This document shows, one piece after another, positions 58,763 to 58,906 of a DNA stretch of 64,000 bases. Numbering within the stretch: the stretch's first letter is position 1; each line of letters opens with the position of its first letter. Location of the stretch: the sequence record OL631478.1; one strand, written 5' to 3'. The notes under the pieces are model-generated. The model saw nothing but the letters and a program-made list of their open reading frames with translations. It was not told the DNA's origin and ran no database searches. Both the position numbers and the translations under genes were made by a program. The DNA is from Escherichia phage ECML-1.

Positions 58763-58906
58763 AATTATCTTTGTAGATAAGTTATTAAGCTTACCTGTGA
58801 GTATGCGACCACAAAGGGTGAAAGGGTAAATTCTAGATTTAAACCCAACAAGGCACATCGCTACAGACCTTAAGCAAGTCTGGGTAGCTTATCTACAAAG
58901 ATAATT
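58763..58906 (+). ncRNA. long hairpin closed by a 19 bp perfect inverted repeat
   Basis: aattatctttgtagataag (58763-58781) and cttatctacaaagataatt (58888-58906) enclose about 106 nt that contain an inner cagacc...gtctg hairpin. Confidence 0.4.

What the first reader, a model, noticed from the sequence alone, without database searches (positions are those of the whole stretch)
58763..58906. 19 bp perfect inverted repeat enclosing a ~106 nt structured segment
aattatctttgtagataag and its exact reverse complement flank a region with an internal cagacc/gtctg hairpin, immediately upstream of tRNA-Lys. Could be a second Y-RNA-like or processing-signal element, or the remnant of an intron or mobile insertion.
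Basis: seen in the sequence. Interest (0 to 1): 0.55.

Follow-up and report, generated by a model that had tools for sequence, protein, structure and literature searches.

The report
Conserved folded RNA beside phage tRNAs
The inverted repeat is the closing stem of a roughly 144-base, previously undescribed folded RNA that Felix O1-type phages keep inside their tRNA gene array, next to Y-RNA-like RNAs and a Ro60-like protein gene, so it is a real RNA gene whose function is still untested.

Summary
A perfect 19-bp inverted repeat (58763-58781 / 58888-58906) extends to a 24-bp stem and is the longest local inverted repeat in the 64-kb window.

The window is a Felixounavirus. The element lies 4 nt upstream of tRNA-Lys(UUU). 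It sits in a promoter-to-promoter unit of tRNAs that also holds four Y-RNA-like stem modules. A gene 1.1 kb upstream encodes a protein whose predicted fold is Ro60.

Homologues occur in 12 sequence lineages of Ounavirinae-like phages and share one architecture:
- a long closing stem P1;
- two stacked helices Px and Py separated by a 5-side loop;
- a hairpin P5 with loop CYUWWGCAA that abuts the 3' strand of P1;
- a pseudoknot between that loop and GCUWA in the 5' junction.

On a hand alignment, 96.4% of cells pair against 67% in shuffles, and 27 of 32 pairs show compensatory changes. Two lineages fetched after the model was fixed also fit it.

The element matches no Rfam family. It is single-copy, absent from E. 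coli genomes, has no conserved ORF and is not an insertion. The best reading is a small structured RNA gene, probably an RNA partner of the Ro60-like protein. That functional step is inference only.

The parts
58763..58786 (+). P1, 5' strand of the closing stem.
   Evidence: The inner 10 bp pair in 96% of cells across 16 sequences, and all 10 columns show compensatory changes.
58789..58793 (+). 5' strand of the pseudoknot (GCUUA) in the junction between P1 and Px. It pairs with UAAGC in the P5 loop.
   Evidence: Pairs seen: GCUUA/UAAGC (A, C, K), GCUAA/UUAGC (B, J), UACUA/UAGUA (G), GC-AA/UU-GC (H). 87% of cells pair and 2 of 5 columns have double changes.
58805..58808 (+). Px, 5' strand (GCGA)
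   Evidence: Pairs with 58858-58861. Variants are GCGA/UCGC, GCGG/CCGC, GAGU/ACUC, CGGU/ACCG, GGGU/ACCC and CAGU/ACUG. 98% of cells pair.
58809..58817 (+). 5'-side internal loop between Px and Py (CCACAAAGG). It is opposed by the single A at 58857.
   Evidence: The loop is 7-9 nt in all lineages. Its sequence is not conserved: GCCGAAGA in type B, AGGCACGAA in lineage I and GGGCACGAA in lineage H.
58818..58820 (+). Py, 5' strand (GUG)
   Evidence: Pairs with 58854-58856. Py is 3-7 bp and pairs in 100% of cells, with 6 of 7 columns compensatory. RNAalifold found it independently in type B.
58821..58853 (+). Variable apex, with hairpin GGGUAAAU...AUUUAAACCC and the self-complementary hexamer UCUAGA (58832-58837)
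   Evidence: A self-complementary hexamer is present in 10 of 12 lineages, read by eye from the sequences.
58854..58861 (+). Py 3' strand (CAC), bulged A, Px 3' strand (UCGC)
58864..58882 (+). P5 hairpin: CAGAC, loop CUUAAGCAA (58869-58877), GUCUG. It runs directly into the 3' strand of P1.
   Evidence: 100% of cells pair and 6 of 6 columns are compensatory. The loop consensus is CYUWWGCAA.
58883..58906 (+). P1, 3' strand.
58911..58986 (+). tRNA-Lys(UUU). Cleavage at its 5' end by RNase P would set the 3' end of the element (inference).
58628..58764 (+). Neighbouring YrlA-type RNA. It has a stem base with an AGA:G loop and a permuted tRNA-like domain. That domain comprises GGCGAAG, a T arm at 58685-58702, a closed acceptor stem at 58703-58709/58715-58721 and a D arm at 58724-58738. 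Its last 2-3 nt overlap the start of P1.
   Evidence: (compensatory acceptor stems ACUCGGC/GUCGAGU, ACACGUU/GGCGUGU, ACCCUUC/GAAGGGU). Features as defined in PMC4201824.
56229..57644 (+). Gene for a Ro60-like protein (Pfam DUF2828 + DUF7788). It is the presumed protein partner.
   Evidence: AlphaFold2 model with pLDDT 86.7. The top 12 Foldseek PDB hits are all Ro60/TROVE, E about 2e-8, TM 0.5-0.67. It is 33% identical to mycobacteriophage 'Ro-like RNA binding protein'.

Best explanation
Window 58763-58906 (+ strand) is a gene for a small, compactly folded non-coding RNA.

Shown:
- The inverted repeat is its closing stem, P1.
- Inside is a three-way junction. One arm is made of two stacked helices, Px and Py, separated by a 7-9-nt loop on one side.
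- The other arm is a hairpin, P5, that runs directly into the 3' strand of P1.
- The 9-nt loop of P5 (CUUAAGCAA) pairs with GCUUA in the 5' junction. This pseudoknot locks the fold.

Inferred from position:
- The RNA is made as part of one transcript, from promoters near 57663/57754, together with tRNAs Pro to Ile and four Y-RNA-like RNAs.
- RNase P cutting at the start of tRNA-Lys, followed by trimming back to P1, would set it free.

Inferred from context, not shown:
- Its most likely role is as one of the RNA partners of the phage's Ro60-like protein.
- The long stem would dock on the protein. The pseudoknotted domain has the topology of a tRNA: an acceptor-like stem stacked on a T-arm-like hairpin whose loop pairs with the D-region strand. 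It would present a shape recognised by a host or phage factor.

My confidence that it is a functional structured RNA gene is about 0.9. My confidence that it works with the Ro60-like protein is about 0.35-0.4.
For: Structure:
- Twelve sequence lineages keep the same helices with different sequences.
- On the 16-sequence alignment, 96.4% of cells pair against 66.8% in shuffles (0 of 500 reach it). 27 of 32 pairs have changes on both sides. Sliding the partners by 1-3 columns gives 32-37% (14-sequence version).
- RNAalifold, run on type-B sequences alone without my model, finds P1, Py and P5 with compensatory pairs.
- Lineages K (L205) and L (L207) were fetched after the model was fixed, and both fit it.
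- Many G-U pairs fix the strand as +.

Conservation and copy number:
- The element is present in 249 phage records at the same site.
- Type A occurs in 189 phage records, at 192 places in all.
- It occurs once in the window.
- No ORF is conserved across the lineages.

Transcription context:
- Promoter-like sites flank the unit and no terminator-like site lies on the + strand between them.

Link to Ro60:
- The Ro60-like gene is 1.1 kb upstream on the same strand.
- A YrlA-type RNA lies immediately 5', and three more RNAs share its base.
- This meets the locus criterion of Chen et al. 2014: within 4 kb of Ro60, on the same strand.
- In lineage D, the P1 of the element still has the helix / A-rich loop / helix base and the CAGCA motif of the Y-like modules.
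- The Bas63 homologue of the protein (gp130) counters the Ppl defence. Its authors only guessed that Y RNAs hide among the tRNA genes.
Against: - No expression, end-mapping or binding data exist, and the literature searches found none.
- The alignment was made by hand and fitted to the structure, so the pairing percentages lean towards it.
- The pseudoknot is the weakest helix. It fails in lineage I, and it has an A.A mismatch in F and L.
- Single-sequence minimum-energy folds do not recover Px. They are 2-14 kcal/mol better than the nested consensus.
- The window copy has a perfect stem with no bulge. It lacks the AGA:G base, the GNCGAA/CGAA motif and any T or D arm, so nothing in it resembles a known Ro60 site.
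- The internal-loop sequence is not conserved.
- Neither the descriptor nor the covariance model found the element near Ro60-like genes in about 155 more distant phage loci. The linkage could therefore be shared ancestry rather than function.
Confidence: 0.5

Rival explanations
1. It is a transcript-processing or spacer element. The long duplex would be an RNase III site, or a structural insulator, that separates the upstream small RNAs from tRNA-Lys. It would help tRNA maturation without any function as a free RNA.
For: In the window P1 is a 24-bp near-perfect duplex, long enough for RNase III (established property of the enzyme). The element lies between two processed RNAs, 4 nt from a tRNA.
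Against: P1 is only 11-12 bp in lineages H and I, and it is interrupted in D, E and F. Px, Py, P5, the loop sequence and the pseudoknot are all kept, which is far more than a cleavage site needs. Other tRNAs in the array are only 1-8 nt apart and have no such element between them.
Confidence: 0.15
2. It acts independently of Ro60, as a tRNA-shaped decoy or anti-defence RNA. For example, it could soak up a host tRNA-targeting nuclease or a tRNA-binding enzyme, possibly in support of the adjacent tRNA-Lys.
For: The topology resembles tRNA: P5 abuts the 3' strand of P1, and its loop pairs with the strand that occupies the D-arm position. In 11 of 12 lineages the element sits directly upstream of a tRNA-Lys. 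Host systems that cut tRNA-Lys (PrrC, PARIS) are known; this rests on my own knowledge and was not checked here.
Against: There is no T-loop or D-loop sequence, and neither ARAGORN nor Rfam tRNA gives a hit on the element. In L205 the element precedes tRNA-Ile, and in L118 it precedes tRNA-Lys(CUU). No 3D model was made.
Confidence: 0.15
3. It is a self-cleaving ribozyme of an undescribed class that cuts the polycistronic transcript.
For: It is a compact three-way junction locked by a loop-junction pseudoknot, with a few invariant nucleotides. It is placed where the transcript must be cut.
Against: No Rfam ribozyme family matches, even at E up to 10. No hammerhead, twister, pistol, hatchet or HDV core motif is visible by inspection of the sequence. 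RNase P already accounts for the 3' cut.
Confidence: 0.05
4. It is the remnant of an intron, or a miniature inverted-repeat mobile element.
For: There are terminal inverted repeats around a short non-coding segment. Two alleles about 70% identical exist between otherwise 90-96% identical flanks.
Against: It is a single copy in the window and in each phage record. E. coli genomes contain no copy. Every relative that has the locus has the element, so there is no empty site. It does not interrupt a tRNA or a protein gene. There is no group I or group II intron match. Covariation shows selection on the RNA fold.
Confidence: 0.02

Closest known systems
Bacterial and phage Y RNAs: YrlA, the second Y RNAs YrlB/Yrn2, and Thermus phage phiLo Yrl1/Yrl2
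   Same: It is encoded within 4 kb of a Ro60-type gene on the same strand. It lies beside a YrlA-type tRNA mimic. It is about 100-150 nt long. Its 5' and 3' ends form a long stem that encloses a large loop or domain. Several such RNAs occur per locus, and they can be processed from one precursor (PMC4201824; PMC12135203).
   Different: The window copy has no bulged Ro-binding helix and no GNCGAAN0-1G/CGAA motif. It has no T or D arm. Its core is a pseudoknotted three-way junction that has not been described for Y RNAs. Binding to the protein is untested. The protein itself is the DUF2828 branch of the fold, not canonical TROVE.
Phage T4 species 1 and species 2 RNAs (rnaC, rnaD)
   Same: They are small stable RNAs of 139 and 119 nt with unknown function. 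They are encoded inside a phage tRNA cluster on the same strand as the tRNAs and next to a tRNA.
   Different: There is no sequence or structure match: the covariance model gave no hit on the T4 locus. rnaC carries a canonical T arm. T4 has no Ro60-like gene nearby in the stretch examined.
tRNA and tRNA-like structures
   Same: The order of elements is the same: a closing stem, a strand that pairs with a distal hairpin loop, a long arm, a short linker, and a 5-6-bp hairpin that abuts the 3' strand of the closing stem.
   Different: There are no conserved tRNA nucleotides and no D stem. The loop is 9 nt (CYUWWGCAA), not a T loop. The closing stem is 11-24 bp, not 7. Neither ARAGORN nor Rfam tRNA gives a match.

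Membership tests
Y RNA (Ro60-associated RNA) | Bound by a Ro60 protein | not testable with these tools
   Needs immunoprecipitation or a gel shift with the product of 56229-57644.
Y RNA (Ro60-associated RNA) | Encoded near a Ro60 orthologue on the same strand (within 4 kb; Chen et al. 2014) | tested here: met
   The gene ends at 57644 and the element starts at 58763, on the same strand. The Ro60 fold is supported. The criterion is quoted.
Y RNA (Ro60-associated RNA) | Stem formed by the 5' and 3' ends that carries the conserved Ro-binding helix or motif (bulged helix, GNCGAAN0-1G or CGAA) | tested here: not met
   The long terminal stem is present. In the window it is perfect, and the internal loop is CCACAAAGG. 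GCCGAAGA occurs in type B and CACGAAG in H and I, so the motif is not conserved. The AGA:G base of the four neighbouring modules is absent.
YrlA subfamily | tRNA-like domain with a T arm, a closed acceptor-like stem and a D arm | tested here: not met
   These are absent from 58763-58906. They are present in the neighbour at 58683-58738.
Any curated RNA family (Rfam 15), including ribozymes, riboswitches and introns | Covariance-model match | tested here: not met
   There is no match inside the element at the gathering threshold or at E up to 10.
Mobile element or intron remnant | Multiple copies, empty sites in relatives, interruption of a host gene | tested here: not met
Intrinsic terminator | G+C-rich hairpin followed by a U run | tested here: not met
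   No terminator-like site lies on the + strand here. The stem is A+U-rich and is followed by UAAUGG.
RNase III processing hairpin | About 20 bp or more of duplex, conserved as such | tested here: inconclusive
   The duplex is 24 bp in the window, 11-12 bp in lineages H and I, and interrupted in D, E and F. Cleavage was not tested.
T4 species 1/2 RNAs | Homology in sequence or structure | tested here: not met
   Model R1 gave no hit on the T4 locus L124. The predicted folds differ.

The most novel reading that the evidence does not exclude
The element founds a new class of compact, pseudoknotted, tRNA-shaped RNA. In this reading it forms, together with the neighbouring Y-like RNAs, a ribonucleoprotein with the phage Ro60-like protein. 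It would supply that particle's specificity in countering a host defence: the Bas63 homologue of the protein counters Ppl. It might act as a dimer through its self-complementary apical hexamer.
Probability: 0.2. Interest if true: 0.8.

Novelty: new variant of a known kind. Interest (0 to 1): 0.62.

Why it matters
Ro60 and its Y RNAs are well studied in animals and in a few bacteria. What phage versions do is barely known. One preprint shows that the Felixounavirus Ro60-like protein defeats a host defence system. Its authors only guessed that its RNA partners hide among the tRNA genes.

This work locates concrete candidates: four Y-like stem modules, one of them a permuted tRNA mimic, and beside them a fifth RNA with an unrelated fold supported by covariation and found in hundreds of phage genomes.

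That makes the question directly testable. One can ask which of these RNAs bind the protein, and what the pseudoknotted RNA adds. It also corrects database annotation, because small 'hypothetical proteins' are called over this element and a false intron-containing tRNA-Thr over the neighbouring YrlA-type module.

Tried and rejected
- **Rfam.** Scans at the gathering threshold and at E up to 10 found only tRNAs.
- **MAFFT across lineages.** The alignment of types A, B and C put Px out of register and was unusable for structure. I replaced it with a hand alignment padded with N, which MAFFT kept column for column.
- **Loop-motif scan.** A scan of distant Ro60-like loci gave only chance hairpins.
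- **Descriptor scan.** One hit in L114 overlaps the end of a coding region and a terminator, and I rejected it. The relaxed version mostly picked up tRNA anticodon arms.
- **Metagenome scan.** Using the protein alignment, it returned only the known types A, B and C.
- **Covariance model R1.** It found no copies beyond the lineages already identified.
- **Alternative pairing.** Junction U(U/A)ACC could pair with the 3' strand of P1. This is possible in A and B but not in the other lineages, so I dropped it.
- **Small ORFs.** The ORFs over the element (33 aa on +, 76 aa on -) are not conserved in position, frame or length in other lineages.
- **Other readings.** A retron RNA has no reverse transcriptase gene nearby, and a terminator has no U run. 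Both were rejected.
- **Supplementary tables.** Those of Chen et al. 2014 are not held, so I could not check whether Felix O1-type phages were among their 22 phages.
- **PDB sequence search.** A search with the protein found nothing. Only the fold comparison showed Ro60.

Full report
**What is in the sequence**

- AATTATCTTTGTAGATAAG (58763-58781) recurs as its exact reverse complement at 58888-58906, around 106 nt.
- The repeat extends to 22 nt with one mismatch, and to a 24-bp stem when G-U pairs are allowed.
- The inner hairpin is CAGAC/GUCUG (58864-58868 / 58878-58882).
- tRNA-Lys(UUU) begins at 58911.

It is not a chance feature.
- It is the longest local inverted repeat in the 64-kb window.
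- The arm is expected 0.06 times by chance and is found twice.
- The segment folds 6.6 standard deviations better than shuffles.

**Where it sits**

The window is a Felixounavirus (Felix O1-like). The tRNA-Asp to tRNA-Lys gap (58480-58910) is 100% identical to phage KhF1 and matches 251 phage records.

The element lies in a 430-nt gap between tRNA-Asp and tRNA-Lys, within an array of 25 tRNA genes. Promoter-like sites at 57663 and 57754 precede tRNA-Pro. The next is at 59160, after tRNA-Ile. No terminator-like site lies on the + strand between them. Co-transcription with tRNAs Pro to Ile is therefore likely, but it is inferred.

**The upstream protein**

ORF 56229-57644 carries only the Pfam domains DUF2828 and DUF7788. 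It has no sequence match in the PDB.
- An AlphaFold2 model (pLDDT 86.7) matches full-length Ro60/TROVE structures in its top 12 Foldseek hits. These include Xenopus Ro60, Deinococcus Rsr and Thermus phage phiLo Ro60, at E about 2e-8 and TM 0.5-0.67.
- It is 33% identical to the mycobacteriophage proteins annotated 'Ro-like RNA binding protein'.

**The neighbouring RNAs**

The segment just 5' of the element (58628-58764) has the defining features of YrlA (Chen et al. 2014, PMC4201824):
- a GGCGAAG motif;
- a T arm;
- a closed 7-bp acceptor-like stem;
- a D arm.

Together these make a circularly permuted tRNA. The acceptor stem shows compensatory changes among relatives.

Its stem base is a 4-bp helix, an AGA:G asymmetric loop and a 7-8-bp AGACC.../...GGUCU helix, followed by NNUACAGCAA. 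The same base recurs at 57979-58056, 58145-58215 and 58539-58620. It recurs with covarying helices in distant relatives.

The element is therefore embedded in a cluster of Y-RNA-like modules downstream of a Ro60-like gene. I found no description of this cluster in the literature. A preprint on the Felixounavirus Bas63 shows that the homologous protein gp130 counters the Ppl defence. It only speculates that some tRNA genes may be Y RNAs (PMC11482910).

**Is the element conserved?**

Yes, and far beyond the stem.
- The region is present in 249 phage records.
- The window's version, type A, is in 189 records at 90% identity or more, at 192 places in all.
- A second version, type B, is about 70% identical. 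It is found in Mooglevirus, Suspvirus and some Felixounavirus.
- Fetching contigs that encode proteins 50-63% identical to the window's Ro60-like protein gave ten further sequence lineages, C to L.

**The shared architecture**

All lineages share one architecture:
1. a closing stem P1 of 11-24 bp;
2. a 5' junction of 17-22 nt that contains GCUWA;
3. a 4-bp helix Px;
4. a 7-9-nt loop on the 5' side only;
5. a 3-7-bp helix Py;
6. a variable apex;
7. one bulged purine;
8. a 2-3-nt linker that ends in A;
9. a 5-6-bp hairpin P5 with loop CYUWWGCAA, running directly into the 3' strand of P1.

The P5 loop is complementary to the GCUWA of the junction, and the two change together:
- GCUUA/UAAGC in A, C and K;
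- GCUAA/UUAGC in B and J;
- UACUA/UAGUA in G, where the loop reads CUUUAGUAA;
- GC-AA/UU-GC in H, where one base pair has been deleted from both sides.

This is a pseudoknot.

**How strong is the structural evidence?**

I registered a hand alignment of 16 representatives through MAFFT, using N padding that was preserved column for column.
- 96.4% of 478 cells form standard pairs, against 66.8% in shuffles (0 of 500 reach it).
- 27 of 32 pairs change on both sides.
- The covariation score is 0.757 against 0.204.
- Sliding the partners by 1-3 columns drops pairing to 32-37%. The 14-sequence version is and my own count.

| Helix | Cells paired |
|---|---|
| P1 (inner 10 bp) | 96% |
| Px | 98% |
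| Py | 100% |
| P5 | 100% |
| Pseudoknot | 87% |

Three caveats apply.
- The alignment was fitted by hand to the structure, so these percentages lean towards it.
- The pseudoknot fails in lineage I and has an A.A mismatch in F and L.
- Single-sequence minimum-energy folds differ between lineages. They beat the nested consensus by 2-14 kcal/mol when the pseudoknot strands are held single.

Two checks are less biased.
- RNAalifold, run on eight type-B sequences without my model, finds P1, Py (three compensatory columns) and P5.
- Lineages K and L were fetched after the model was fixed. Both fit every helix, with a 6-bp and a 4-bp pseudoknot respectively.

The abundance of G-U pairs shows that the RNA is read from the + strand, like the tRNAs.

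**What it is not**

- **No Rfam family.** Nothing matches inside the element, even at E up to 10.
- **Not a tRNA**.
- **Not a terminator**.
- **Not protein-coding.** The small ORFs that overlap it are not conserved in frame, position or length.
- **Not a mobile element or intron remnant.** It occurs once in the window and at 192 places in 189 phage records. It is absent from 5,426 E. coli genomes. No relative with the locus lacks it.
- **Not related to T4 rnaC or rnaD.** Those stable RNAs in the T4 tRNA cluster are the nearest functional analogy.
- **Not a general companion of Ro60-like genes.** A structure descriptor gave 0 hits in 1.1 Mb of shuffled sequence. Neither it nor covariance model R1 found the element in about 155 more distant phage loci that encode the protein.

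**How it most likely works**

Shown: a conserved, compact, pseudoknotted fold, encoded on the tRNA strand inside a tRNA and Y-like RNA unit.

Inferred from position: RNase P cleavage at tRNA-Lys would leave 4 nt after P1, and trimming to the duplex would give a stable RNA of about 144 nt. The 5' end is unclear, because the first 2-3 nt of P1 overlap the basal helix of the YrlA-type neighbour. The two RNAs could either compete there or be cut apart.

Inferred from context: the RNA is a partner of the Ro60-like protein, as second Y RNAs are in Salmonella, Mycobacterium, Deinococcus and phage phiLo. Two points favour this:
- the locus;
- lineage D, where P1 still has the helix / A-rich loop / helix base and the CAGCA motif of the Y-like modules.

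Two points argue against it:
- the window copy has a perfect stem and no known Ro-binding feature;
- the association is confined to one phage clade.

The topology is tRNA-like. P5 abuts the 3' strand of P1, its loop pairs with the strand in the D position, and Px-Py form the long arm. A tRNA-shaped decoy that acts independently of Ro60 is therefore a serious rival.

The link to tRNA-Lys is not absolute. The element precedes tRNA-Ile in L205 and tRNA-Lys(CUU) in L118.

A pure RNase III site is unlikely because P1 shrinks to 11-12 bp in two lineages while the core is kept. A new ribozyme cannot be excluded, but nothing specific supports it.

**Verdict**

The element is a real small-RNA gene that, as far as I can find, has not been described. 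Its fold matches no known family, and it sits in a locus that was itself not recognised as a Ro60 / Y-RNA cluster. Its function remains an inference.

Noticed in passing
window 57979-58056, 58145-58215, 58539-58620, 58628-58764: Four RNAs between the tRNAs share one stem base. It consists of a 4-bp helix, an AGA:G asymmetric loop and a 7-8-bp helix AGACC(AA/GU)...(UU/AC)GGUCU, followed by NNUACAGCAA. The last of the four carries a circularly permuted tRNA-like (YrlA-type) domain. The same base, with covarying helices, occurs in L041, L042, L120 and L004. They are likely binding sites for the Ro60-like protein.
   Followed up: partly
window 56229-57644: Databases label this protein DUF2828/DUF7788, 'hypothetical', 'vWFA protein' or 'RNA-binding protein'. 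Its predicted fold is full-length Ro60 (TROVE plus vWA). The family is widespread in phages: 682 phage records at E<=1e-40.
   Followed up: yes
window about 58580-58709 (L001 1602-1732; L002 1601-1729): Some GenBank records annotate a 129-131-nt 'tRNA-Thr-GGT' here. This is a false intron-containing tRNA call, triggered by the T arm of the YrlA-type module. ARAGORN also calls a spurious permuted tmRNA over the equivalent region of L028.
   Followed up: partly
window 58832-58837, and the apex of the element in other lineages: The variable apex carries a self-complementary hexamer in 10 of 12 lineages: UCUAGA (A, B), ACUAGU (C), GCGCGC (G), AACGUU (H-K) and CACGUG (L). Two of the switches are double changes that keep self-complementarity. 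This fits either a kissing-loop dimer or the closing pair of a tetraloop, and I could not decide between them.
   Followed up: no
L003 (Salmonella phage DaR-2019a) compared with window 58481-59141: The flanks are 96% (upstream RNAs) and 90% (tRNAs Lys-Met-Ile) identical to the window, but the element is only 71% identical (type B). The switch occurs inside P1. This looks like exchange of alternative alleles of the element between otherwise similar phages.
   Followed up: partly
window 58489-58541: Two conserved hairpins lie directly after tRNA-Asp: GAGAGGGCU...AGCCCCUC and CCUUAAAGGG...CCUUUAAAGG. The second has a G-C to A-U compensatory change in relatives.
   Followed up: no
window 59393-59471 and 59438-59836: Rfam finds a weak tRNA (31.7 bits) that ARAGORN misses, and relatives annotate tRNA-Arg(TCT) there. 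The ORF that follows has HNH-endonuclease-like Cys/His motifs but no Pfam hit.
   Followed up: no
L206 7270-7400: A more distant phage with a Ro60-like gene has a different structured RNA with a T-arm-like hairpin, preceded by its own promoter-like site, just upstream of its tRNA-Lys.
   Followed up: no
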